Shown: positions 1,662 to 12,984 of the stretch, one piece after another
How positions within the stretch are numbered: the stretch's first letter is position 1
How the letters are laid out: each line of letters starts with the position of its first letter
NCBI GenBank assembly: GCA_021399395.1
Contig: JAAFKJ010000078.1
Span: 1-23,848, forward strand
Direction of reading: 5' to 3'
DNA length: 23,848 bases
From: Candidatus Heimdallarchaeota archaeon
Lineage (GTDB): Archaea; Asgardarchaeota; Heimdallarchaeia; Heimdallarchaeales; Heimdallarchaeaceae
Position numbers and translations under genes: made by a program
Notes under the pieces: generated by a model
What the model was told of the DNA's origin: nothing
What the model saw: the letters and a program-made list of their open reading frames with translations, nothing else
The model's database searches: none

Positions 1662-2699
1662 ATGGGTGTAAAGAAAATAAGTGATTTGTTTCAAGGAACC
1701 CCAATAGAAATAGACCAACTCAGGCAAAAGAAATTAGCTGTTGATGCTTACAATATTATTTACCAATTTCTTGCTTCAATCCGAGGTTTTGATGGAAGTT
1801 TATTATCAGACGGAGAAGGAACCATAACCAGCCATCTTACAGGTTTATTGTATCGAAATGCTAGATTGTTGGAGAAGGGAGTAAAACTTGTGTACGTTTT
1901 CGATGGAAAACCCTCACAATTGAAGCGAGAAGAAATAAAACGAAGATCTGAAGTTAAAGCAAAAGCTAGAGTAGAATTAGAAGAAGCACTAGAAAGAGGA
2001 GACATGGAACGTGCTCGAACTGTGGCTCAAAGAACAAGTAAATTGACCAGACCAATGGTCGAAGATAGTAAAAAACTTCTGAAACATCTTGGCATCCCTG
2101 TAGTAGAAGCCCCTCAAGAAGGTGAATCTCAAGCAGCATATTTAGTTCAACAAAAGAAGGTTTGGGGAGTGGCATCACAAGATTATGACAGTTTATTATT
2201 TGGTTCACCGACTCTAATTAGAAACTTAACTCTATCAGGTCGTAGAAAGCTCCCTAAATCAAATCGGTATATTACGGTAAATGTTGAAGAATATCGTCAG
2301 CATGAATTGCTTCAAGCTTTGGACATCTCTCGAGAACAGCTGATTGATATGTCTATTCTAATTGGAACTGATTTTAATCCCGATGGGGTTAAAGGAGTTG
2401 GTCCAAAGACGGCATATAAGTTGGTTAAGGAGCATGGAAATCTAGAAACTGTTCTGGAAAAAGAGGAAAAAATTGTTTTAGATGTTGACTATGATGCAGT
2501 TAGAGAGATTTTCTTAAATCCTGTAATCAGTAAGGAATTTGATCTTAATTTTGAACCCATAGATATTGATGGTGCTGTTGAATTCCTTTGTGATGAAAGA
2601 GGATTCAGTAAAGATCGAGTCTATGGTACCTTACAAAAAGCAAAGAAAGGTCAAGAAACTGCTTTGAAACAAAAAAGCCTTGATTCATTTTTCGGATGA
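1662..2699 (+). CDS. fen1: Flap endonuclease 1 (archaeal FEN1)
   Basis: MGV start, AVDAYNIIYQFL, VYVFDGKP, EGESQAAY, SQDYDSLLFG, GTDFNPDGVKGVGPKTA, and C-terminal PCNA-binding PIP box QKSLDSFF. AGGAG RBS at 1648-1652 favours ATG 1662. Confidence 0.97.
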   Translation: MGVKKISDLFQGTPIEIDQLRQKKLAVDAYNIIYQFLASIRGFDGSLLSDGEGTITSHLTGLLYRNARLLEKGVKLVYVFDGKPSQLKREEIKRRSEVKAKARVELEEALERGDMERARTVAQRTSKLTRPMVEDSKKLLKHLGIPVVEAPQEGESQAAYLVQQKKVWGVASQDYDSLLFGSPTLIRNLTLSGRRKLPKSNRYITVNVEEYRQHELLQALDISREQLIDMSILIGTDFNPDGVKGVGPKTAYKLVKEHGNLETVLEKEEKIVLDVDYDAVREIFLNPVISKEFDLNFEPIDIDGAVEFLCDERGFSKDRVYGTLQKAKKGQETALKQKSLDSFFG

Positions 2700-2706
2700 T
2701 GATGTT

Positions 2707-3954
2707 ATGATATCCAAATATTCTGTTTTTGTTAAATGTGGATCAAATAGAGAATTATCTAAGTTGGAGACATCATCTCTTCTCGAAAGACTAAACCCAA
2801 AGGATTTTTCTTTTCAAGAATGGAAACAAAATCTGCTTCTGAAACTTTCAGAGAATGAGAGGGGACGATTCTTTAAATTGCTTGAACATACAGGCAGTAT
2901 AGTTAAATCTGGTGTTTTAGAAATTGAAGAAAACATCCAAAGAGAAAAAGAATGGAAACTTGAGCTAAGAAAATTATTAGATAAAACCGTTCGGAAGAAA
3001 TATGCACAAACAAAAAAACAACTCAAGGTTTCAATTAGTATTCAAAGTAACTCAAATGAAGTTACAACTAAAATTCACAAAAATACTCAGAGAATACTTC
3101 GAGATTTATCAGCTGATTCCGATATACCAATAAAGATTTTGAAGCTAAAAAATGAAAACTTTGAGCAAACTCCCTTTCAATATCATAAAGAGAATATATC
3201 TAGAAGAGGGTTTGAAGTTACGGGATTTGTAATTAAATCTAAAGTCTTCTTTGGAATAACTAAATGGGTTACAAATCCATTAGTGGATATCAAACAAGAT
3301 GAAGGAAGAAAAGTACGATTCTTTACACATGGTACTTCAATAAAACTTGCAAGAAGTTTAGTGTTTCTTTCACAAATTCAGAAAGGAGGAACACTGCTTG
3401 ACCCATTCTGCGGAACTGGTACTATTCTACTTGAGGGTTTAAAGCAAGGACTAAATGTAATAGGTATAGATAAAGATCCAAAGTGTTTCAGAGCTTCAAA
3501 AGAGAATCTTAACCAATATACTCTACATTTTCCTTCAAAAAATCAAGTAAAAGAAAAATGGAAAGTGTTTAAACAAGATTCTCGTCATCTTTCAACAATA
3601 CTGACTAACAAAGTAGAAGCTATTGTTACAGAACCTTACCTCGGTCCTTTTCTGAATGAACTCCCTGAAGAGTATGAAGCAGAAAGTATAATGAGTAACT
3701 TAGAACAACTTTATGTCTCAGTTTTAAAAACAAGCAAAGAATTTCTAAAGACGAATTCGAAAGTGGTTATGATTGTACCTGAATATCAGTATTCAGATAA
3801 ATTAGTGATCAAACCAAACATAGAAAAAATAGCAAACAGAAGTTCACTGGTGCTTGAAACTGAAAGCGCATTCTTCTCACTAACAACCCCCATTTCAATA
3901 GGTCGTAAACACAACATCATTGGTAGAAGATTGGCAGTGTTTTCAAAATCTTGA
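2707..3954 (+). CDS. Trm11/TrmG10-like SAM-dependent RNA methyltransferase
   Basis: C-terminal class I MTase: KLARSLV, LLDPFCGTGTILLEG, VIGIDKD, motif IV variant IVTEPYLGP. The N-terminal half is divergent (possible THUMP-like region). ATG 2707 lies 7 nt after the fen1 stop. Confidence 0.7.
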   Translation: MISKYSVFVKCGSNRELSKLETSSLLERLNPKDFSFQEWKQNLLLKLSENERGRFFKLLEHTGSIVKSGVLEIEENIQREKEWKLELRKLLDKTVRKKYAQTKKQLKVSISIQSNSNEVTTKIHKNTQRILRDLSADSDIPIKILKLKNENFEQTPFQYHKENISRRGFEVTGFVIKSKVFFGITKWVTNPLVDIKQDEGRKVRFFTHGTSIKLARSLVFLSQIQKGGTLLDPFCGTGTILLEGLKQGLNVIGIDKDPKCFRASKENLNQYTLHFPSKNQVKEKWKVFKQDSRHLSTILTNKVEAIVTEPYLGPFLNELPEEYEAESIMSNLEQLYVSVLKTSKEFLKTNSKVVMIVPEYQYSDKLVIKPNIEKIANRSSLVLETESAFFSLTTPISIGRKHNIIGRRLAVFSKS

Positions 3955-4011
3955 TTTTTATGTAATAGAAAGAATGATATCGAACGAAAAAACAGCTTTT
4001 TTAGATATTGA

Positions 4012-4278
4012 CTAATCTTCCCCTATTGCTAAAAAGCTCATATCTTTTGTCATTTTTTGAATACGTCTTTTTGTTTTGGATATCCATCTTACATGAATCA
4101 AACCTTGGTTTTCTAATGTCATAAGTGCTTTGTTTAGCTCTGAATCAGAATAATCACCATACATATCCTTTAGAGGATTTTCAAGATCATTCTCAAGAAC
4201 TACTCCTCCTCGTTTTTCCAGTATGGCAAGAATACATGATTTCAAAGGTGTAACTTTCCACATGCCATTTGAGCTCAT
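4012..4278 (-). CDS. Small winged-helix protein
   Basis: 88 aa with wHTH pattern ILAILEKRGG...SELNKALMTLENQGLIHVRW...RRIQ. A TTTAAA TATA box at 4301-4306 is placed for a leaderless transcript. Confidence 0.75.
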   Translation of the reverse strand: MSSNGMWKVTPLKSCILAILEKRGGVVLENDLENPLKDMYGDYSDSELNKALMTLENQGLIHVRWISKTKRRIQKMTKDMSFLAIGED

Positions 4279-4300
4279 GGATAAAATTACGGCACAAGGG

Positions 4301-4306
4301 TTTAAA
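4301..4306 (-). promoter_or_regulatory. TATA box for the wHTH gene (leaderless)
   Basis: TTTAAA 22 nt upstream of ATG 4278; no RBS visible. Confidence 0.5.
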
Positions 4307-4410
4307 TGCCTTGTGTTTGAGAAAAATGTTCATAGTGATTCACATCTCCGCTAAATATACTTGGGAACAAAAAACTTATTATTAGTTAAATTTTGAGTGC
4401 TTCAGTCATC

Positions 4411-4587
4411 ATGAACGCACGAGCTAGAATATTCCTGATATTTTTTATGTCAATAGGTATTATATTTCTAATAATCGCAATAGTACAACACCAAGCATTG
4501 TATTATGATTCATTCAGTCTTTTCTCAGAGGCTAAACTGAAGGATTTCTTAGATGTTTATGTTTCTGGAATTCCTAAACCATGGTAA
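4411..4587 (+). CDS. Small single-pass membrane protein, probable partner of the downstream polyferredoxin
   Basis: One strongly hydrophobic segment IFLIFFMSIGIIFLIIAIV after a basic N-terminus. AAAAACTTATTA promoter-like element about 30 nt upstream of ATG 4411. Ends 22 nt before the next gene. Confidence 0.65.
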   Translation: MNARARIFLIFFMSIGIIFLIIAIVQHQALYYDSFSLFSEAKLKDFLDVYVSGIPKPW

Positions 4588-4609
4588 ATACAAAAAGTAA
4601 GTGAATAAA

Positions 4610-5533
4610 ATGGCAACAAAGCAATTAAAACCACTCCTTTCCAGTGCACTACGTCCATTTAAAGACCATCGTATTAGAATTGTTCGTTTCATTGTTCAAT
4701 TTATAATGTTTGGATTGATAAATGGGCTGGTTTTTGGTCTCGCAAGAATACCAGTACTTCTTCCAATAGCTTTTCCATCTGGTGGTCCATTTACCGTTGT
4801 ATGGAACGCATTTGAAGCTCTGCAGTATTTACTTACAATGTGGGTTTTCCCCTATCTAGCTTTATCTATATTCTTGCTATTTGGCTCGATTCTAGGAAAA
4901 ACAACTTGTGGATGGGTATGCCCATTTGGTTTGTTCCAAGATTTATTTAGATTGATACCCATAAAGAAGAAAAAAGTCTCACGTCCAACTGATAAAACTC
5001 TAAATAGAATGGGGATGGCTGTAACAGTCTTCATTCTGATAATGTCTTTCATAATTGGTTTAACATACTTTAATACCGGATCAAAAACCTCTTTTGGAGC
5101 AGGTAAAGACATGCCGTATAGTACAATAGATCCTTCATCTACTCTATTTGGAACTTTATACTATTACTTAGAATGGGGAATGCAGAACGCTACATTTGGA
5201 CAAGAAATTGGACAATGGACATTTGTATTCTTTCTTAGGATTATAATCTTTGCAGCCGTATTGGTACTCATCGTACTTTATCCTCGTTCATATTGTAGAT
5301 GGTTCTGCCCAACAGGAATTATGTTAGGATTATTTAGCAAATACAGTCTTTTCGGATTGCAAATAAACAAGAATAGATGTGCAAGTGGTTGTGATAGTTG
5401 CGAAAAAGCTTGTCCTACTCAAGTACCGATATTGCAATACGATAAAGATGTTACTAATAAACAGTGCATTAACTGTGGAGAGTGTATTGATGCATGTAAG
5501 GAAGGAGCTCTTAAACTGAAGTTCCGACTTTAA
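4610..5533 (+). CDS. NapH/YccM-like polytopic membrane 4Fe-4S binding protein
   Basis: Several TM helices, two CxxxCP motifs (GKTTCGWVCPFG, RSYCRWFCPTG) and a C-terminal 2x[4Fe-4S] domain (CASGCDSCEKACP, CINCGECIDAC). Start is ATG 4610 or GTG 4601. Confidence 0.88.
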   Translation: MATKQLKPLLSSALRPFKDHRIRIVRFIVQFIMFGLINGLVFGLARIPVLLPIAFPSGGPFTVVWNAFEALQYLLTMWVFPYLALSIFLLFGSILGKTTCGWVCPFGLFQDLFRLIPIKKKKVSRPTDKTLNRMGMAVTVFILIMSFIIGLTYFNTGSKTSFGAGKDMPYSTIDPSSTLFGTLYYYLEWGMQNATFGQEIGQWTFVFFLRIIIFAAVLVLIVLYPRSYCRWFCPTGIMLGLFSKYSLFGLQINKNRCASGCDSCEKACPTQVPILQYDKDVTNKQCINCGECIDACKEGALKLKFRL

Positions 5534-5563
5534 TTCTTTTCTCTTCTTTTTATACTTCTTTCT
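5534..5563 (+). terminator. Pyrimidine/T-tract archaeal terminator
   Basis: TTCTTTTCTCTTCTTTTTATACTTCTTTCT immediately after the stop codon. Confidence 0.55.
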
Positions 5564-5629
5564 CGTGTTTATGGATAGTAGAGGAAAAAAATTTGTGGTT
5601 TTATACTGAACAATCTAATTAAAGTTAAT

Positions 5630-5651
5630 CCGATAAAATAGTGTTTATAAA
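5630..5651 (+). promoter_or_regulatory. BRE/TATA promoter of cdc48
   Basis: Purine-rich CGATAAAATA followed by TTTATAAA (5644-5651). GAGGA RBS at 5699-5703 before ATG 5711. Confidence 0.6.
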
Positions 5652-5710
5652 GCTCCAATATTAAATCAAAAACAGATTAAAACTCTATATTATTACTTGA
5701 GGAATAATAA

Positions 5711-7897
5711 ATGGCTGATAAAGATATAACCCTTAGAGTGGCAGAAGCTAAACAAAGAGATGTAGGCCGAGGAAAAGTTCGACTTGATAGCATGGCCATG
5801 TCTAAAATTGGTGTTTCTACAGGAGATATTGTAGAGATTGTAGGTAAGCGTTCAACAACCGCAGTAGCCTGGCCATCATATCCTGAGGATTTGAAGAAAG
5901 AAATTGTAAGGTGTGATGGAGTTATTCGCAGAAATGCTGGTGTTTCCCTTGGAGATAAAGTTGTTGTAAAGAAAGCTAAGGTTAGTGTTGCACGTCAAGT
6001 AACTCTAGCACCTGAACAAATGTCTGTGAATATTGATTTTAGTTTCGAAAATTTTGTAAAAAGAAAATTATTAGGGCAGCCACTTTCTAGAAAAGATACT
6101 GTTCTTATTCCTATTCTTGGAAGAGCTATTCCTTTCAATGTTGTAAGTACAGTTCCCTCTGGGATAGTAGTCGTAACAGAAGGAACTCAACTCAAAGTTG
6201 CAGAAAAACCATTAGTTGAAGGAGAAAAAGCTGCTCCAAGTATTTCATATGAGGATATAGGAGGTCTTCACCAAGAAATTCTTAAGATCAGAGAAATGGT
6301 TGAACTTCCACTTAAATTCCCACAACTATTTGAAAAACTAGGAATTGACCCACCAAAGGGTGTTCTTTTGCATGGTCCTCCTGGTTGTGGAAAAACATTA
6401 ATTGCCCGTGCAGTGGCAAATGAATCAGAAGCTCATTTTATTGTTATAAACGGACCAGAAATTATGTCCAAATTCTATGGTGAGTCTGAACAGAGACTAC
6501 GAAGTATCTTCAAGGATGCTGACGAGAACTCACCAAGTATTGTATTTATAGACGAATTGGATGCAATAGCTCCAAAAAGAGAAGATGTTACTGGTGAAGT
6601 TGAACGTAGAGTTGTAGCACAATTATTAGCCTTAATGGATGGCATGGTTGGTCGTGGTCAAGTTATTGTTATCGGTGCAACCAATCGTCCTAATGCGGTT
6701 GATCCAGCTCTCAGAAGACCAGGCAGATTTGATAGAGAAATTGAGATACATGTTCCTGACAGAGATAGTAGAGAAGAGATTATGCTTATTCATACCAGAG
6801 GAATGCCATTAGCTCCAGATGTAGAACTCAAATCACTTGCTGATGTAACTCACGGATATGTGGGTGCAGATTTAGAAGCCTTATCTCGAGAAGCAGCAAT
6901 GAAAACTTTGCGTAGAGTCTTGCCATCAGTAAATCTAGAGGAAGAAAGTATTCCTGCAGATATTTTAGATAAATTAGAAGTAACTCATGATGATTTTGTC
7001 CAAGCCCGAAAAGAAATAACTCCTACAGCTGTTAGAGAAGTATACATCGAGTCTCCAGATATCCCATGGGAGGATGTTGGAGGACTTAAATCAGTAATTA
7101 ATGAAATTCGAGAAGCAATAGAATGGCCTTTAACACATCCCGAAGCATTCAAACGAATTGGGATTAAACCTCCAAGAGGAATTCTACTTTATGGTCCTCC
7201 TGGTTGTGGTAAAACACTGCTTGCTAAAGCAGTAGCAACAGAGTCTGATGCAAATTTCATTTCAGTCAAAGGTCCGGAAGTCTTGTCTAAATGGGTAGGT
7301 GAGAGTGAAAAAGCAATTCGTGAAGTTTTCAGAAAAGCTAGAATGGCATCTCCTTCGATTGTTTTCTTTGATGAAATCGACTCTCTAACACCGATTAGAG
7401 GTATGTCATCTGATAGTAATGTAACAGAAAGAGTGATCAGCCAACTATTAACTGAATTAGATGGTCTCGTAGAGCTGAAGGATATTGTAGTGATCGCAGC
7501 AACAAACAGACCAGATATTGTTGATCCTGCTTTACTCAGACCAGGACGTTTTGACAGATTAATAAATATTGATGCACCAAATCAGAAAGGAAGACTTGAG
7601 ATTCTCAAGATCTATACTCGAGATATGCCGATCGATTCTTCAGTTGTATTGAAAGATCTAGCTTCTTCAACAGAAGGTTTTGTTGGAAGTGACATAGAAG
7701 CGTTATGTAGAGAAGCAGGAATGATTGCATTAAGAACTGATTTCGAGATTGAGAAAATCACCATGGAACATTTCAATAAAGCTCTAGTGAAGGTTTTTCC
7801 AACAGTAACCCCCGATGTAATCAAATACTACAAGAAGGTTGAAGAAAAATTCAAGCAACCAAGTCACATTACTAGTCCAAAGATAGGGTACACATAA
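5711..7897 (+). CDS. cdc48: Cdc48/VAT (p97-like) AAA+ ATPase
   Basis: N-domain [17 protein letters not shown] and two AAA modules (GPPGCGKT x2; Walker B FIDELD and FFDEID; [13 protein letters not shown] and [10 protein letters not shown]). C-terminal ...IGYT with penultimate Tyr (HbYX-like). Confidence 0.98.
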
Positions 7898-7898
7898 A

Positions 7899-7920
7899 CC
7901 CCTTCCTTTTATTTTTCATT
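7899..7920 (+). terminator. Pyrimidine/T-tract terminator after cdc48
   Basis: CCCCTTCCTTTTATTTTTCATT directly after the stop codon. Confidence 0.55.
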
Positions 7921-8008
7921 AATCCTTTTGTTAATAGATTATACGAAAAATTAAACAAATTTTTAAGTATTAACACACGTTGTAGAATCTTGAAGGGTTG
8001 TTTGTACG

Positions 8009-8860
8009 TTGATGGGGTTCTATATAGTCAACAAGAAAAAAATGGAAGTTTTATTCTGTAGGCCTTTAACCGTTAATGCAGATGAAACTGAAATAGACAT
8101 GCTTATTGAGATGCTTCTAGACTTCTATGTTAAGTCAGAAGATAAAACAACATTGAAAGAGTTACAACTTCTCAAATTTGCTCAAACAAAAGTACTATTT
8201 ATGAGTAAATTTTCATTCCTTTTCATTCTTTTAAGCCCTCCTAACTACTCTACAGAAATGGTTTCATCACAATTATTCTTTTTCATGAAATTATTTCTAA
8301 ATGCATTTGAAATCAAAGATACTAAGAGCGCTGAAGAATTTTTGAATGAGCTAGAAGGTATCAAACGAAGAGAAGTATCTGAATCTCTTTCTCATTCATT
8401 TCTATTATGGAATGTACTAGATTTACACATAGAAGACATAGATAAAAGAAATATGATTGAAGTCTTTGAAAACGTATTAAATTCGATCTGGCTAGGTCTT
8501 CGCATGCATTGTGTCGAAAATGAGAAAAACCTATCATCTACTCTAATTCAAGATGTAAAGAAACAACTCAAAGGTTACATAGACAAAAATGCATTCACCA
8601 TTAGAGAATCCTATGAATTGAATGAGAGTGAGGGATTTATTTTTAGTGATATTGATATTCAGAAAGGTACAACAACAGAAATAAAAAGAGAATTTCTTTT
8701 GCTTGTAAAAACCTTTATGGAAATTATTGAAGAACAACTGACTATTGAAGGATTACGTCAGATTATAGCTTTGAAGATTCCTTCTACTATGAAAGTAGAA
8801 TGGGAAAGAATGCAAGGATTGAGCATTTTACAAGATATTCTAAATCAGGTGTGGAGGTAA
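8009..8860 (+). CDS. Putative longin-domain protein with a helical C-terminal domain
   Basis: The N-terminal ~105 aa read as beta-beta-alpha-beta-beta-beta-alpha (GFYIVN / EVLFCR / helix IDMLIEMLLDFY / LQLLKF / TKVLFM / FLFILLS / helix VSSQLFFFMKLFLNAF), the longin pattern. Its stop lies 5 nt before the Rab-like ATG. The fold call is by eye. Confidence 0.6.
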   Translation: MMGFYIVNKKKMEVLFCRPLTVNADETEIDMLIEMLLDFYVKSEDKTTLKELQLLKFAQTKVLFMSKFSFLFILLSPPNYSTEMVSSQLFFFMKLFLNAFEIKDTKSAEEFLNELEGIKRREVSESLSHSFLLWNVLDLHIEDIDKRNMIEVFENVLNSIWLGLRMHCVENEKNLSSTLIQDVKKQLKGYIDKNAFTIRESYELNESEGFIFSDIDIQKGTTTEIKREFLLLVKTFMEIIEEQLTIEGLRQIIALKIPSTMKVEWERMQGLSILQDILNQVWR

Positions 8861-8865
8861 ATAAA

Positions 8866-9453
8866 ATGAATCAATTACAAAAAATAATATGCGTTGGATC
8901 AGCATTTGTGGGTAAAACATCTTTATCTAGAAGGTTTACTTTGAACACATTCATACACAGTTATATTCCAACATTAGGTGTGAGTTGGTTAACAAAAACA
9001 ATTACCTTGACTCCAGAACAATTGAATGAGAATTTATCAAAGAAGGTTTATACAGATCCATTAACAGTGAGAACCTCAATTTGGGATACGGGCGGACAAG
9101 AAATGTTCACTTATCTTCGTCCAAAATACTACGTTGGCGCTTCTTGTGCCATTTTAGTCTTTGACATCACCAATCAAAGTTCTTTCGATGATATTGAAAT
9201 GTGGGTCAATGAAGTTACTAGTAAATGTCCTGATGTTCCTATCATCATTGTTGGTAATAAATTTGATTTGAATGAAGCTCGTTCTATCTCTCGAGATGAC
9301 ATTCTTAATTATACTAAGCTTCACAAATTTGACTATGTTGAAACTTCTGCTCTTTCTTCTTACAACGTCGACAAACTCTTCTATCATGCTTCTCGCTTGA
9401 GCATTCAATATGGTGATGAAACAGTCAAATTTAGACAAAACTATGTTATTTAG
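8866..9453 (+). CDS. Rab-like small GTPase (Ras superfamily)
   Basis: G1 GSAFVGKTS, G2 PTLG, G3 WDTGGQE, G4 NKFD, G5 ETSAL; RabF-like YYVGA and LVFDIT; no C-terminal Cys prenylation motif. GGAGG RBS at 8853-8857 supports ATG 8866 rather than 8800. Confidence 0.95.
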   Translation: MNQLQKIICVGSAFVGKTSLSRRFTLNTFIHSYIPTLGVSWLTKTITLTPEQLNENLSKKVYTDPLTVRTSIWDTGGQEMFTYLRPKYYVGASCAILVFDITNQSSFDDIEMWVNEVTSKCPDVPIIIVGNKFDLNEARSISRDDILNYTKLHKFDYVETSALSSYNVDKLFYHASRLSIQYGDETVKFRQNYVI

Positions 9454-9480
9454 TTATTTTCACTTCTCCCCTCTTTTCTT
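9454..9480 (+). terminator. Pyrimidine-rich terminator after the Rab-like gene
   Basis: TTATTTTCACTTCTCCCCTCTTTTCTT follows the stop codon. Confidence 0.45.
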
Positions 9481-9534
9481 GCCTCATAATCCTTAAAGAT
9501 ATGAAATTACTTATTTATACAATAATGTGATGAG

Positions 9535-9825
9535 ATGTCCAAGCAGAATAGTGAAGCGGGTTCTTACAAATGTGATTCCTGCAATATATACTATGAGGTA
9601 AAAAGAGAGAATTGTATAAGATGTGGAAACAAATACGATTTGAATGAAGCAAGATCTGTTTCCAAAGAAGCTGCCTTAGAATATACTAGACTTCGCAGGT
9701 TTGATTATGTTGAAACTTCCGCGTTATCTGCCTATAATGTGGATAAACTATTCTATCATGCAAGCAGGCTCTCACATCAATTTAGTGACGAAACGCTGAA
9801 ATTCAGAGAAGAATACTCTCTATGA
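9535..9825 (+). CDS. Chimeric protein: N-terminal zinc ribbon fused to the G4-G5 C-terminal part of a Rab-like GTPase (could be a pseudogene)
   Basis: CDSC-x10-CIRC then GNKYDL...ETSAL...; lacks G1-G3. Intact frame, TATA-like CTTAAA at 9492-9497 and GTGATGAG just upstream of the ATG. Confidence 0.75.
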   Translation: MSKQNSEAGSYKCDSCNIYYEVKRENCIRCGNKYDLNEARSVSKEAALEYTRLRRFDYVETSALSAYNVDKLFYHASRLSHQFSDETLKFREEYSL

Positions 9826-9868
9826 CATTTCTTATGTGATTTGAGACAAAAAACGTTAACTGTCATTA

Positions 9869-9885
9869 AAAAAATCTTTTATAAA
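9869..9885 (+). promoter_or_regulatory. BRE/TATA promoter of the CBS-HPF gene (leaderless)
   Basis: AAAAAATC followed by TTTATAAA (9878-9885), 22 nt before ATG 9908; no RBS visible. Confidence 0.6.
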
Positions 9886-9907
9886 CTTAAACTATAGATT
9901 TGGTACC

Positions 9908-11068
9908 ATGAGCGACGATACTTTATCTATTATTACAGATTATGTTTCAATTGATAGTAACGAACCTTTAACTAAAGCTCTTCACATTCTTAAAGAACAA
10001 GAACGAGAAGTGCTTGTTTTTGAACAAGGAGACGTGTTTCTTGGATATTTAACGAAAAGATACATTACTTTGCAATCAAAAATACAATCAGATGCAAAAG
10101 CATCTAGTTTAATTAAGAGAGTTCCAACAGTTCACAAAGATACTTCAAATGATGCAATTGCAAGAGCAATTCTGTCTGAAAAAATCTTTTCAGTACCTGT
10201 AGAAGAAAATGGTAAGGTTATTGGTGTTATCAGAGATATTGATCTCTTGAGATCATCTGAAGAAATATTTGGAAGCAAGAAAGTAAAGGAAGCGATGACT
10301 CATAATCCAATAACAGTCACTGAAGATACATCAGTAGCTCGTTTTATTGCCGTATCAAGGACAAACAACATTTCAAGAACTCCTGTTGTAGATTCGTCTA
10401 ACAAACTTGTTGGGATTGTAAGTCCTCATGATACTTCTACTTTAATACTCTCAGAATCTCCTGGACAAACTACTGGAGATCGCAAATCAACTCAACAGGA
10501 TATTCTCTCCGTTGGTGTTAAAGAAATCATGACTTCTAATGTAGTAACATGTAAAGAAAATGATTTTCTAATTGAGGCAATTAACCTGCTGTATAATGCT
10601 AACCATAAAGCGTTGATAGTCATAGATAAAGACAACCATCCTATTGGAATTTTGACAACAAGTGATTTACTTGAATCTGTATCTATCCCTCCACAGACAG
10701 AAGGTTATTACTTCAGAGTTTTGGGTGACGTTGATGACACTGACATGGAACAAGTAATCGAAATGGGTGTTGAGTTAGTGAAGAAATTTGCTGATATTAT
10801 AGGAAACTCAGGACAGATGTTTATTCATGCTAAGGTCTTCCCCAAAAGGAAATTTAGAGGATTTGTTTTATATCAAACCCGAGTAAGAATTTCAACTGAT
10901 AAAGGAAAAACATATGTTGCACGATCAGATGGTTACGGAATCTTTAGTGCTTATGCTGTTGCATTAGACCGTATAGAGCGAGAGATTGTTTCCGAAAGAG
11001 AATTAGAACTCGATAGAAGGCATTCAGGAAGTGTAAGATACATCTTAGAAGAAATAGATGAACTCTAA
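9908..11068 (+). CDS. Tandem CBS-domain protein with C-terminal HPF/RaiA-like domain (candidate ribosome hibernation factor)
   Basis: Four CBS repeats (FLGYLT; SVPVEENGKVIGVIRDIDLL; VKEAMTHNPITV...TPVVDSSNKLVGIVSPHD; VKEIMTSNVVT...PIGILTTSDLL). These are followed by a beta-alpha-beta-beta-beta-alpha region ending YVARSDGYGIFSAYAVALDRIEREI, like the HPF/RaiA C-terminal helix. Confidence 0.8.
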   Translation: MSDDTLSIITDYVSIDSNEPLTKALHILKEQEREVLVFEQGDVFLGYLTKRYITLQSKIQSDAKASSLIKRVPTVHKDTSNDAIARAILSEKIFSVPVEENGKVIGVIRDIDLLRSSEEIFGSKKVKEAMTHNPITVTEDTSVARFIAVSRTNNISRTPVVDSSNKLVGIVSPHDTSTLILSESPGQTTGDRKSTQQDILSVGVKEIMTSNVVTCKENDFLIEAINLLYNANHKALIVIDKDNHPIGILTTSDLLESVSIPPQTEGYYFRVLGDVDDTDMEQVIEMGVELVKKFADIIGNSGQMFIHAKVFPKRKFRGFVLYQTRVRISTDKGKTYVARSDGYGIFSAYAVALDRIEREIVSERELELDRRHSGSVRYILEEIDEL

Positions 11069-11089
11069 TTCCTTCTTTTTTCATTTTTT
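11069..11089 (+). terminator. T-tract terminator
   Basis: TTCCTTCTTTTTTCATTTTTA after the stop codon. Confidence 0.55.
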
Positions 11090-11135
11090 ATCCAAGATTT
11101 AAAGTCCCTATCGTTAATCTTTTTAATTTAGACAG

Positions 11136-12203
11136 ATGGTAAAAATTGAAATGAGTGACACAGAAGTAAAAAAGCGAAGATCTAATTTTGCTTTATTGAA
11201 TCGAACAGTTATCAAACCAGGTTATTGTACAAGCTGTGGTGGATGCGAAGCTGTCTGTCCAGTGTATGTGATTTCAATTGAGCAATTAGTTCCTAAGCTC
11301 AAAGGAGGGTGTATCTCTTGTGGTGCTTGTGTAGATGTTTGTTTAAGATATAAACAAAGAGTAGAACAACCTGCAATTGAGGAAGAAAGTTTAGGTACAA
11401 TAATTGAACTCTACAGAGGTAAATCAAAACTAGCAGATGTTAAGGAAAATTCACAGAATGGTGGAATTGTTACTACTTTACTCCTTACTGCAATGAAAAA
11501 ACAGAAAATCGATGGGGCATTGGTTACATCTCATGTTACTGATCTTCTAGGTCCTACTCCAATGCTTGCACTAAATGAACTAGACATAAGAAAAGCTTCT
11601 AGATCAAAATATACTCTTAATCCTGTTCTTACAAAGTTAACTTCAATAAAATTAAGTCTAAAAGAGAAGGTAGCATGTGTTGGACTTCCATGTCATACTG
11701 AAACCCTATCCAACGCAATCGAAATGAAGAACTTGGGTGCTGATTTCAGAGTAAAGTACAAAATAGGTCTATTCTGTATGAGTAGTTATAACCCTTCAGC
11801 ATTCCGCAGTATAATTACCCAAAACTTGGGTTTAAGTGCGGAATCATTAAATAAAACTGATTGTGCTAGAGGTAAATTCTTCTTTGTTGGACCCGATGGA
11901 ACAACTGACATCAAAATTAAAGAATGTGCAGAAGCTAAAGCTGAAGGATGCAAATATTGTTCAGATTTCTCTGCTGAATTTGCTGATATAGCTGTCGGTA
12001 ACATTGGTGTAGCCGATGATAGTAATATCATCCTCATTAGAACAGAAGCAGGAAAAGAATTGTTTGATTTTGCATTAAACGAAAATGTTCTCGATGTCGA
12101 AAAAGTACCAAAGGAGAAATGGGAAGAAGCTTTGGCTGCAGCAAAGAAACTCTCTACAACAAAGAAAAAGCATGTAAAACCCTTACCTCCTATTGAATCT
12201 TAG
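11136..12203 (+). CDS. FrhB/FdhB-family F420-binding flavoprotein with N-terminal 2x[4Fe-4S] ferredoxin (FpoF-like)
   Basis: CTSCGGCEAVCP and CISCGACVDVC, then the FrhB motifs SQNGGIVTTLL, SKY, VGLPCH, IGLFCM and GCKYCSDFSAEFADIAVG. Start may be ATG 11151. Confidence 0.9.
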   Translation: MVKIEMSDTEVKKRRSNFALLNRTVIKPGYCTSCGGCEAVCPVYVISIEQLVPKLKGGCISCGACVDVCLRYKQRVEQPAIEEESLGTIIELYRGKSKLADVKENSQNGGIVTTLLLTAMKKQKIDGALVTSHVTDLLGPTPMLALNELDIRKASRSKYTLNPVLTKLTSIKLSLKEKVACVGLPCHTETLSNAIEMKNLGADFRVKYKIGLFCMSSYNPSAFRSIITQNLGLSAESLNKTDCARGKFFFVGPDGTTDIKIKECAEAKAEGCKYCSDFSAEFADIAVGNIGVADDSNIILIRTEAGKELFDFALNENVLDVEKVPKEKWEEALAAAKKLSTTKKKHVKPLPPIES

Positions 12204-12225
12204 AATAGGTAATTCAGATAAAAAG

Positions 12226-12984
12226 GTGAGAGAAATATCCAGAGTAGAACTCATCCCTTTGAAATTACCTATAATTCAACAAGGGGATGATATCTCCAAA
12301 TTAATACTTGATTCGTTGAATGATGAGAATCTCACATTAGAAAATGGGGATGTTGTCGTTATAGCTCATACGATTATTTCTAGAGCTGAAGGAAATGAAT
12401 TTTTTATACCCTCTCTTCACTCCTCTCCTTTTGCAGAACTTATTGCAAGAAAAACTGGAAAAGATCCAGCATTAGTCCATCTCATAGTTGAAGAGGCAGA
12501 GAAAATACTAAAAGTACAAAATAACTTAATCATAACTAAAACAAAACATGGATGGATATGTGCAAATTCTGCAATAGATCAATCAAATTCTCAACCAAAT
12601 TGTGCAGTATCTTTACCAGATGATTCAAATGCTTCTGCAGAGAAAATTGGTAAAAATCTAGCAAATGAAATGGGTAAGGAAATAGCAATTATTGTTTCAG
12701 ATACTCATGGGAGGGCATTGAGGAGAGGGGCTATTAACATCGCAATAGGAGCTTTTAACTTCCCAGTTATTGATGATATTAGAGGTAGAAGAGATATTTT
12801 TGGTTATGAACTTAAATCTACAATTGTCGCTTTAGCAGATGAAGTATCTTCCGCTGCAGAATTAGTAATGGGTCAAGCCGGTGAGATGATTCCTGTTGTT
12901 ATAGTTAGAGGATTAGAGTTTAAATCGCCCATTGCTTCAATATCAGAATTACAGTTTGATGATGATAGAAGATTGTTCAAATAG
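12226..12984 (+). CDS. cofE: Coenzyme F420-0:L-glutamate ligase
   Basis: LPIIQQGDDI, GDVVVIAHTIISRAEG, GWICANSAIDQSN, IIVSDTHGRALRRG, DIFGYELKSTIVALADEVSSAAELVMGQ, PVVIVRG. Start uncertain (GTG 12226 vs TTG 12193). Confidence 0.95.
   Translation: MREISRVELIPLKLPIIQQGDDISKLILDSLNDENLTLENGDVVVIAHTIISRAEGNEFFIPSLHSSPFAELIARKTGKDPALVHLIVEEAEKILKVQNNLIITKTKHGWICANSAIDQSNSQPNCAVSLPDDSNASAEKIGKNLANEMGKEIAIIVSDTHGRALRRGAINIAIGAFNFPVIDDIRGRRDIFGYELKSTIVALADEVSSAAELVMGQAGEMIPVVIVRGLEFKSPIASISELQFDDDRRLFK

What the first reader, a model, noticed from the sequence alone, without database searches (positions are those of the whole stretch)
8866..9825. Zinc ribbon fused to a 'half-Rab': a second, diverged copy of only the G4-G5 third of the adjacent GTPase
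Seen: 9535-9825 encodes CxxC-x10-CxxC followed, with no gap, by 66 residues that are 47/66 identical to the last 66 residues of the upstream Rab-like GTPase, and both stop at the same codon position. The fusion point is shared: the ribbon's 'CG' runs into the GTPase 'GNKxD' (CIRC-GNKYD vs IIV-GNKFD). P-loop and switch regions are absent. A pyrimidine terminator and a TATA-like element separate the two genes, so the chimera appears to have its own promoter. Established: G4 and G5 bind the guanine base, while G1-G3 are needed for phosphate binding and hydrolysis. Inference: this may be a non-catalytic decoy or regulator that mimics the Rab C-terminal surface, one half of a split GTPase, or a spare C-terminal cassette (recombination across the 372-bp offset would give a full Rab with the alternative tail). 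It could equally be a deletion-derived chimeric pseudogene.
Basis: partly seen in the sequence, partly recalled or inferred. Interest (0 to 1): 0.75.

Follow-up and report, generated by a model that had tools for sequence, protein, structure and literature searches.

The report
Displaced Rab gene tail, chimeric ORF
The small zinc-ribbon/half-GTPase gene is most likely a leftover of recombination: the original end of a Rab-like gene, pushed aside by an imported replacement end and joined to the first 30 codons of a zinc-ribbon gene, so it shows how gene ends get swapped in Asgard archaea and is probably not a new regulator.

Summary
ORF 9535-9825 encodes CxxC-x10-CxxC followed by 66 residues that are 47/66 identical to the end of the Rab-like gene 8866-9453, at a 372-nt offset. 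Contigs from two studies bridge the junction.

The fused tail is the native Rab tail: it is 82/80% nt identical to the single Rab of sister species G021/G001, as are the Rab head and the downstream CBS gene. The tail on the full Rab is foreign, at 65-67% with saturated synonymous sites.

The 3' flank, promoter and zinc-ribbon head are homologous to "Rab end - flank - 5' end of a ~440-aa zinc-ribbon gene" in related contigs. That homology stops, and native Rab homology starts, within 12 nt encoding C-G-N-K in both parents (9622-9633). This explains the shared, in-frame fusion point.

The same 3'-end displacement, with 2-9 kb islands and orphaned Rab fragments, recurs in the genus.

The fusion was found only in this species. 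Verdict: a recombination scar, probably transcribed and probably not a selected gene. Function is not excluded.

The parts
8009..8860 (+). Conserved 283-aa gene of unknown family directly upstream of the Rab gene (context, probably co-transcribed)
   Evidence: ORF; no Pfam family at E<=0.1. The same gene precedes the Rab in every fetched genus locus that reaches that far.
8866..9453 (+). Complete Rab-like small GTPase gene (195 aa), mosaic of a native 5' part and an imported 3' part
   Evidence: Pfam Ras 5.9e-45. 8866-9045 is 163/180 identical to G021. Tail 9253-9450 is only 66.7/65.2% identical to G021/G001.
9133..9453 (+). Imported (xenologous) 3' part of the Rab gene ('tail A'). The left limit is uncertain, somewhere between about 9046 and 9253.
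   Evidence: Lies in the other half of the tail tree from tail B. Nearest is L041 at 77%. 80/90 identical to the G017 fragment over 9163-9252, against 71/90 to G021. Excess of lineage-specific nonsynonymous changes in 9133-9252: 6 synonymous, 10 nonsynonymous, against 13 and 4 in 8863-9132.
9454..9534 (+). Imported 3' flank of tail A (pyrimidine-rich) that runs into the promoter region of the zinc-ribbon gene (TATA-like element at about 9513-9520)
   Evidence: 9448-9527 matches the flank after the full Rab of G024 at 75%. Alignment with the G017-type and L041 flanks. 9490-9534 aligns with the upstream region of the L047 zinc-ribbon gene.
9535..9624 (+). Zinc-ribbon head: the first 30 codons of a truncated zinc-ribbon-family gene (CxxC-x10-CxxC)
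   Evidence: 14/33 identical to the N-terminus of the 440-aa protein of L047, E 2e-8. DNA 9405-9539 aligns to L047 4003-4138 at 75.5%. No paralogue in the organism's own genome.
9622..9633 (+). Joint: 12 nt encoding C-G-N-K, present in both parents (microhomology)
   Evidence: Zinc-ribbon homology runs through the K codon. Native Rab homology begins at 9621-9624 in the loci aligned. TGT precedes GGN-AAY-AAR in 17 of the 20 other Rab rows. The string was read.
9625..9825 (+). Native (displaced) Rab tail 'tail B': G4 NKxD, G5 and the C-terminal helix, with the original stop
   Evidence: 82.3/80.3% nt identical to the tails of G021/G001 and grouped with them. Collinear alignment 9622-11200 to G021. 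Lineage-specific changes: 7 synonymous, 1 nonsynonymous.
9535..9825 (+). Chimeric 96-aa ORF (zinc-ribbon head + native Rab tail)
   Evidence: Among 5.8 billion clustered proteins the only full-length match is the ORF itself.
9826..11068 (+). Native intergenic region and CBS-domain gene (9908-11068), marking the right-hand native flank
   Evidence: Collinear with G021/G001. The intergenic alignment shows a conserved TTTATAAA element. Pfam CBS 1.9e-39.

Best explanation
The 96-aa ORF is a recombination scar and is probably not a selected gene.

In the ancestor, as in sister species today, one Rab-like gene lay between the 283-aa gene and the CBS gene. DNA from another lineage of the same genus then recombined into the Rab gene. 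That DNA carried the 3' part of its own Rab, the Rab's 3' flank, and the start of the zinc-ribbon gene that follows the Rab in some genomes.

The left side joined by homology inside the Rab gene, so the Rab stayed complete but now has an imported tail. The right side joined at a 12-nt stretch that encodes C-G-N-K both in the zinc-ribbon gene and in the native Rab. This happened either in one step (homology-anchored illegitimate recombination) or as a later microhomology deletion of a larger island.

The native tail was therefore displaced downstream and fused in frame to 30 codons of the zinc-ribbon gene. The fusion inherited that gene's promoter and start codon, and the Rab's stop codon.

- Shown: the parentage of each segment, the joint, and recurrence of the same displacement in relatives.
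- Inferred: the order of events; that the ORF is transcribed; and that its product, four Cys plus beta5-alpha4-beta6-alpha5 of a G domain without the P-loop core, has no selected function.
For: 1. Sister species G021 and G001 have CDC48 - 283-aa gene - one Rab - CBS, with nothing in between. G000 aligns to G021 as 7903-9431 and 9622-11200, and both tails map onto the one tail.
2. Tail B is 82.3/80.3% nt identical to G021/G001, like the head (83.8/76.7%). Tail A is 66.7/65.2%. The tails fall on opposite sides of a split with support 95/96 (22 rows) and 88/95 (29 rows).
3. Between A and B, 33.2 of 41.8 synonymous sites differ, which is saturation. They did not arise by a recent local duplication.
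4. The flank after tail A is homologous to the flanks after the Rab in G024 and L041 and after the G017-type fragments, not to the native flank.
5. The zinc-ribbon head and its upstream region are homologous to the 5' end of a 440-aa gene in L047 (14/33 aa, E 2e-8; DNA). Upstream of that gene L047 keeps the last ~50 nt of an A-type Rab tail plus flank.
6. G004 has a full Rab followed directly, on the same strand, by a full-length member of this zinc-ribbon family.
7. The joint is at C-G-N-K, 9622-9633.
8. A clean parallel exists. Compared with its close relative G013, the full Rab of G014 is 27-30 of 30 identical per 30-nt bin up to about CDS nt 180 and 19-27 of 30 after that. The G014 downstream fragment is 26-30 of 30 from about CDS nt 240 to the stop, with a 9-kb island between them.
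9. Further orphaned Rab fragments with other 5' limits occur in G019, G024, G017/L039/L040/L042, G004:C93 (decayed) and P0002.
10. The fusion is private to this species. None of the 24 other genus genomes matches residues 1-26 next to the Rab orthologue. None spans the junction DNA (only 1 of 25, G000 itself). Of 5 proteins in the 5.8-billion set, only the ORF itself covers the head. Of 13 metagenome loci, only L047 matches the head, inside a 440-aa gene.
Against: - The ORF is intact, has an ATG, and sits behind a promoter-like region conserved with L047, so it may well be expressed.
- Tail B shows only 1 nonsynonymous among 8 lineage-specific changes. Under neutrality P = 1.2e-4. This fits either a recent event (neutral phase under about 14-18% of the terminal branch) or continuing constraint, and the two cannot be separated with one genome.
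- The AU test does not formally reject tails A and B being sisters (p = 0.07, lnL difference 27.5, 198 columns).
- The donor lineage is not sampled: the nearest tail is 77% identical. The left limit of the imported part is not sharp.
- No RNA or protein data exist.
Confidence: 0.75

Rival explanations
1. The chimera is an expressed, functional new small protein: a zinc-ribbon-tagged mimic of the Rab C-terminal surface that titrates a Rab partner (decoy or regulator). It arose from the scar and has since been kept by selection.
For: Intact ORF behind an inherited, conserved promoter-like region. Only 1 nonsynonymous among 8 lineage-specific changes in tail B. Identical sequence in contigs from two studies.
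Against: Found in one species only. In-frame fusion, start and stop all follow from the codon-level microhomology and need no selection. The low nonsynonymous count is equally explained by a recent event. A G-domain third without beta1-beta4 and the P-loop lacks most of the fold's core (established knowledge of the Ras fold, not tested here). Other orphan fragments in the genus lack a start codon or are decaying.
Confidence: 0.15
2. The orphan tail is a stored alternative C-terminal cassette. Recombination between the two tails would delete 372 nt and restore a Rab with the native tail, as happens with orphan Rhs/CDI toxin tips.
For: The layout (full gene with a new 3' end, old 3' end downstream, recurrent arrays in relatives) is the one described for Rhs loci and T6SS effector loci (passages of PMC5361080). 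Searches show such arrays here.
Against: The tails are 66% identical at nt level, with in-register exact runs of only 14, 14 and 11 nt. No deletion joint appears in contigs of 4 runs (contigs drop rare variants). Nothing suggests a benefit from switching between two tails that are 71% identical at aa level.
Confidence: 0.05
3. A site-specific integrative element that carries a replacement 3' end of its target gene (as recalled for prophages 21 and e14 in E. coli icd) integrated into the Rab gene, and was later mostly deleted in G000.
For: 3'-end duplication at an insertion with the gene kept intact is the hallmark of such elements. Islands of 2.2-9 kb or more sit at this site in relatives.
Against: Pfam finds no integrase or recombinase in the 8 ORFs of 80 aa or more of the 9-kb G014 island, nor in 5 of the proteins of the G017-like island (L047, L027, L039). 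The 5' limits of the fragments differ: switch II, beta4, alpha3, G4. The G000 joint is a coding microhomology, not a shared att core.
Confidence: 0.05
4. A local tandem duplication of the Rab 3' end, followed by divergence and de novo emergence of the zinc ribbon.
For: Same strand, same reading frame, 372-nt offset. The AU test does not reject A and B as sisters at 0.05 (p = 0.07).
Against: The sequence between the tails is homologous to a foreign Rab flank and to a zinc-ribbon gene, not to the native 3' flank or to Rab coding sequence. Synonymous sites between A and B are saturated, while tail B is as close to the sister species as the head is.
Confidence: 0.02
5. An assembly chimera.
For: Repeated sequence in a metagenome-assembled genome.
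Against: Independent contigs bridge both junctions with 0 differences in runs from two studies (X3 covers 8800-9901; X4 covers 9322-9695). The exact protein is on 3 contigs.
Confidence: 0.01

Closest known systems
C-terminal displacement with orphaned 3' regions at Rhs, CDI and T6SS effector loci (passages of PMC5361080, which cite Jackson et al. 2009 and Koskiniemi et al. 2014; I did not read those two papers)
   Same: A constant 5' part is kept. An incoming 3' part plus downstream genes replaces the resident 3' end. The old 3' end is pushed downstream, and strings of orphans build up. All of this is seen here.
   Different: The gene is a Rab-like GTPase of a Heimdall-group archaeon, not a polymorphic toxin. 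The swapped ends are 71% identical at aa level and have no cognate immunity gene. No advantage of the swap is evident.
Homology-facilitated illegitimate recombination (PMC3240628, abstract and one introduction passage; model passage in PMC5361080)
   Same: One end is anchored by homology and the other joined at a short microhomology. The introduction passage of PMC3240628 gives 3-10 bp in most cases, and the shared stretch here is up to 12 nt. Foreign DNA is inserted next to the anchor.
   Different: It was described for transformation or conjugation in bacteria. Here it is only inferred from sequence, in an archaeon. The joint lies inside the region homologous to the donor, so recipient DNA was duplicated in function and not deleted. 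A two-step route, island insertion followed by microhomology deletion, fits equally well.
Prophages that integrate into a protein-coding gene and bring a replacement 3' end (phage 21 and e14 in E. coli icd; recalled, no call)
   Same: The target gene stays intact with an element-borne 3' end, and the original 3' end remains as a fragment on the far side.
   Different: No integrase was found in the islands examined. The fragment limits vary. The G000 insertion is only 372 nt.
Asgard Rab-like small GTPases (PMC10933270; search listing and start of abstract only)
   Same: The upstream gene is a complete Ras-superfamily GTPase with G1-G5.
   Different: The 96-aa ORF has only G4-G5. Neither protein ends in a Cys prenylation motif; the C-termini were read.
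Zinc-ribbon domains (Pfam DZR PF12773, Zn_Ribbon_1 PF13240)
   Same: CxxC-x10-CxxC-G spacing. Full-length members of the parent family in G014 and G004 hit DZR at 2.1e-6 and 2.6e-5.
   Different: The 35-aa head itself gives no zinc-ribbon Pfam hit better than E 0.05, and the L047 protein gives none at E<=0.01. Metal binding is untested.

Membership tests
Ras/Rab small GTPase (Pfam PF00071) | G1 P-loop GxxxxGK[ST] | tested here: not met
   Absent from the 96-aa ORF. Its Pfam match covers only profile positions 106-158 of 162. The upstream 195-aa Rab has it (GSAFVGKT).
Ras/Rab small GTPase (Pfam PF00071) | Switch I Thr and G3 DxxGQ | tested here: not met
   Absent from the 96-aa ORF. Present in the upstream Rab (DTGGQE).
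Ras/Rab small GTPase (Pfam PF00071) | G4 NKxD and G5 SA[KL] | tested here: met
   NKYD and TSAL are in the 96-aa ORF, aligned with those of the Rabs.
Eukaryote-type Rab | C-terminal Cys prenylation motif | tested here: not met
   Both proteins end without Cys. The motif definition is recalled.
Zinc ribbon (DZR / Zn_Ribbon_1) | Four Cys as two CxxC knuckles about 10 residues apart | tested here: met
   C13, C16, C27, C30. The same spacing is found in the L047 homologue.
Zinc ribbon (DZR / Zn_Ribbon_1) | Significant match to a curated zinc-ribbon profile | tested here: not met
   Best Pfam hits of the 35-aa head are zf-HIT 0.048, HypA 0.079 and RanBP 0.079, all below their cut-offs.
Island zinc-ribbon gene family (L047 440 aa, G014 419 aa, G004 272 aa, G017 333 aa) | Homology beyond the ribbon, to the conserved C-terminal body | tested here: not met
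   Only the first 33 residues align. The body is missing in G000, and there is no match in the G000 genome at E<=1e-5.
C-terminal displacement / orphan 3' cassette | Full gene carries a foreign 3' end while the native 3' end lies downstream | tested here: met
   Parallel case G014 vs G013.
C-terminal displacement / orphan 3' cassette | Variable toxic tip with a cognate immunity gene | tested here: not met
   The tails are conserved GTPase sequence, and no toxin or immunity family was found in island ORFs.
Homology-facilitated illegitimate recombination | Microhomology at the illegitimate joint | tested here: met
   Up to 12 nt, 9622-9633.
Homology-facilitated illegitimate recombination | A single event from linear donor DNA with one homologous anchor | not testable with these tools
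   One-step and two-step routes give the same product, and no close relative with an intermediate was found.
Integrase-driven integrative element | Integrase or recombinase gene in the inserted DNA | tested here: not met
   None in the 8 ORFs of the G014 island or in the island proteins scanned. A TnpB-like protein lies beside the decayed fragment in G004:C93.

The most novel reading that the evidence does not exclude
The Rab 3' third and the zinc-ribbon gene that follows it form a co-adapted, exchangeable module. Heimdall-group archaea of this genus would diversify the C-terminal surface of this Rab by repeated cassette displacement, as polymorphic-toxin loci do. The orphan tails would be kept as a reservoir or, as in G000, expressed as zinc-ribbon-tagged half-GTPases that modulate the Rab's partners.
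Probability: 0.08. Interest if true: 0.75.

Novelty: new variant of a known kind. Interest (0 to 1): 0.4.

Why it matters
The ORF itself is most likely a by-product, so it should not be counted as a new class of Asgard GTPase regulator.

The locus does give a well-resolved natural example of 3'-end displacement of a conserved, eukaryote-like signalling gene in an Asgard archaeon. Every segment has been traced to a parent, and the joint is placed within 12 nt. The event recurs with different breakpoints in related species.

This has three uses:
- It documents inter-lineage recombination and island insertion in uncultured Heimdall-group archaea.
- It shows how an in-frame chimeric ORF with a ready-made promoter can arise in one step, as raw material for new genes.
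- It warns annotators that truncated small GTPases in these genomes can be orphaned gene ends.

I found no paper describing this for Asgard GTPases. The search found 3 papers holding at least 3 of the 4 terms and listed 1, which is on ESCRT systems. The search listed general Asgard GTPase papers. Supplementary files were not open to me.

Tried and rejected
- Structure prediction of the 96-aa protein with a 14-row alignment gave mean pLDDT 47.4 and pTM 0.24. The control, the complete Rab with the same 14 rows, gave pLDDT 43.1. The alignment is too shallow, so the result says nothing about foldability.
- No RNA holder was listed for the stretch, so expression could not be examined.
- The read-laying runs were all Logan contigs, which cannot show rare deletion variants.
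- tblastn and blastn of the zinc-ribbon head against the organism's own genome and the loci held at that time found no paralogue; the best hit was E 0.12. The parent gene was found only through the metagenome scan.
- Pfam gave no family for the 283-aa neighbour, for the L047 zinc-ribbon protein, or for several island proteins.
- The AU test of tails A + B as one clade gave p = 0.07. That is suggestive but not significant, so I rest the case on flank and head homology instead.
- The left limit of the imported segment could not be fixed.
- The bacterial promoter/terminator scanner was not used, because archaeal signals are not covered.

Rows left out of the tail trees:
- loci L001, L002 and L029, which are copies of the window;
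- duplicate sequences from overlapping loci;
- any tail not matching my pattern G-N-K-[F/Y]-D followed by 40-80 residues and a stop. This dropped G023/L022 (GNKHD), the G024 fragment that runs off its contig, the decayed G004:C93 fragment, and the distant paralogues L045 and L046;
- the Rab matches of G012 and G003, which were never fetched.
Full report
**Observation**

The window is contig C169 of a 2.8-Mb, 201-contig genome (completeness 81.8). NCBI-derived names of related proteins point to Heimdallarchaeota.

- ORF 8866-9453 is a complete Rab-like GTPase: Pfam Ras 5.9e-45, profile positions 1-158 of 162.
- ORF 9535-9825 (96 aa) begins with CxxC-x10-CxxC and continues into a sequence matching only Ras profile positions 106-158.
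- The two tails are 47/66 aa and 131/198 nt identical, ungapped, and end at the same codon. The offset is 372 nt.
- Contigs from other samples bridge the junctions without a difference. X3, from a second study, covers 8800-9901, and X4 covers 9322-9695. The exact protein was seen on 3 contigs.

**Which tail is the original**

In sister species G021 and G001 the neighbourhood is CDC48 - 283-aa gene - one Rab - CBS gene - FrhB-like gene, with no ORF between the Rab and CBS genes.

G000 aligns to G021 in two blocks, 7903-9431 and 9622-11200, at about 80% identity. Both tails fall on the single G021 tail.

| Segment | nt identity to G021 / G001 |
|---|---|
| Zinc-ribbon-fused tail (B) | 82.3 / 80.3% |
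| Rab head | 83.8 / 76.7% |
| Tail on the full Rab (A) | 66.7 / 65.2% |

- In trees of 22 and 29 tails, B sits with G021/G001 (and L036). A sits in the other half, with the nearest sequence 77% identical. The split has support 95/96 and 88/95.
- An AU test of A + B as sisters gives p = 0.07.
- Synonymous sites between A and B are saturated: 33.2 of 41.8 differ.

Tail B is therefore the native end of the gene, and tail A was imported from another lineage of the genus. The left limit of the import is not sharp. Over 9163-9252 the gene is 80/90 identical to a G017 fragment against 71/90 to G021. Lineage-specific nonsynonymous changes pile up from about 9133.

**Where the 162 nt between the tails come from**

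- 9448-9527 matches the flank that follows the full Rab of G024. It also aligns with the flanks after the Rab of L041 and after the G017-type fragments.
- The metagenome scan returned one locus, L047, that matches the head. L047 carries a roughly 440-aa gene whose N-terminus is 14/33 identical to the head with the same Cys spacing, E 2e-8.
- At DNA level 9405-9539 aligns to L047 4003-4138 at 75.5%. L047 therefore keeps the last ~50 nt of an A-type Rab tail, the flank, a well-conserved TATA-like promoter stretch and the start codon.
- This zinc-ribbon family occurs in 5 of 30 other family genomes, all in the genus, and not in G000.
- In G004 a full-length member follows a full Rab directly on the same strand. 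In the G017-type loci a ribbon-less member follows a Rab fragment.

The unit "Rab end - flank - zinc-ribbon gene" therefore exists elsewhere, and G000 holds its left part only.

**The joint**

Homology to the zinc-ribbon gene runs through the codons C-G-N-K and then stops. Homology to native Rab genes begins at 9621-9624 in the loci aligned. Seventeen of the 20 other Rab rows have a Cys codon before G-N-K.

Both parents therefore share up to 12 nt at 9622-9633. The intact ORF, its start, its promoter and its stop are all inherited and need no selection.

**Recurrence**

G014 compared with its close relative G013 gives a clean picture:
- The full Rab is 27-30 of 30 identical per bin up to about CDS nt 180, then 19-27 of 30.
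- A 9-kb island follows.
- The downstream fragment is 26-30 of 30 identical to G013 from about CDS nt 240 to the stop.

G019 and G024 have the same type of fragment, starting near switch II with the G3 Asp replaced; the G024 island is 2.2 kb.

A G017-like organism shows the layout: full Rab - two island genes - fragment from beta4 without a start codon - more island genes - remnant of a tail - zinc-ribbon gene - CBS. This is an array of orphans.

G004:C93 holds a decayed fragment beside ABC-transporter genes and a TnpB-like gene. P0002 is another chimeric Rab-tail ORF, with a different head.

No integrase was found in the island ORFs scanned.

**Mechanism and status**

[quoted passage not shown] An introduction passage of PMC3240628 gives 3-10 bp microhomology at such joints.

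I cannot tell a one-step event from island insertion followed by a microhomology deletion.

Tail B has 7 synonymous and 1 nonsynonymous lineage-specific changes. That is incompatible with a long neutral phase (P = 1.2e-4). If the tail is neutral, the neutral phase covers less than about 14-18% of the terminal branch. Continuing constraint is the alternative.

The fusion was found in no other genome or protein set searched.

I therefore put about 0.75 on "scar, possibly transcribed, no selected function" and 0.15 on a functional new small protein. Structure prediction was uninformative, because the full-Rab control failed as well. No RNA data were available.

The search of earlier findings and the protein-atlas search were closed or unable to answer. 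Supplementary files of papers were not consulted.

Noticed in passing
window 8009-8860 (+): A 283-aa gene with no Pfam family ends 5 nt before the Rab start codon. It precedes the Rab in every related locus that reaches that far (CDC48 - 283 aa - Rab synteny). It is a candidate dedicated Rab partner of unknown fold.
   Followed up: partly
window 8800-8865 (+): The Rab frame is open from an upstream ATG at 8800 (217-aa reading), overlapping the end of the 283-aa gene. G001, G021 and L036 have the same extended frame, while other species start at MNQLQK.
   Followed up: no
L024 (G014:C101) 3887-12882: The 9-kb island between the full Rab and the orphan fragment encodes a subtilase-like protein, a Schlafen AlbA_2 fragment, two zinc-ribbon proteins and several predicted membrane proteins of unknown family. 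No integrase was found.
   Followed up: partly
L039 / L042 / L047 (metagenome contigs): An island of at least 13 kb between the Rab and CBS genes holds three paralogues of the zinc-ribbon-family gene, an ABC ATPase plus a 786-aa permease-like protein, an internal Rab fragment, and duplicated gene-end fragments at L047 5479-5698. The region is highly rearranged.
   Followed up: partly
L055 (G004:C93) 2620-2823 (-) and 3450-4880 (+): A decayed Rab fragment (alpha3 to beta6, C-terminally truncated) lies about 630 nt from a 476-aa TnpB/Cas12f1-like protein (Pfam TNB domain, 8e-17).
   Followed up: partly
P0002 (129 aa, on a 481-nt contig): Another annotated small protein consists of an unrelated ~40-aa head joined to the Rab from alpha3 to the end. 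It is a second, independent chimeric Rab-tail ORF.
   Followed up: no
window 9198: Contigs of X1 and X4 read G where the window has A. This is a single-nucleotide variant inside the Rab gene.
   Followed up: no
window 9625-9822 vs G021/G001: Tail B has a near-zero terminal branch (0.029, then 0), while the tails of G021 and G001 have 0.16-0.24 and carry 9 and 8 lineage-specific nonsynonymous changes. The displaced tail looks more ancestral than the working tails of its sister species. This is unexplained; those tails may themselves have been exchanged.
   Followed up: no
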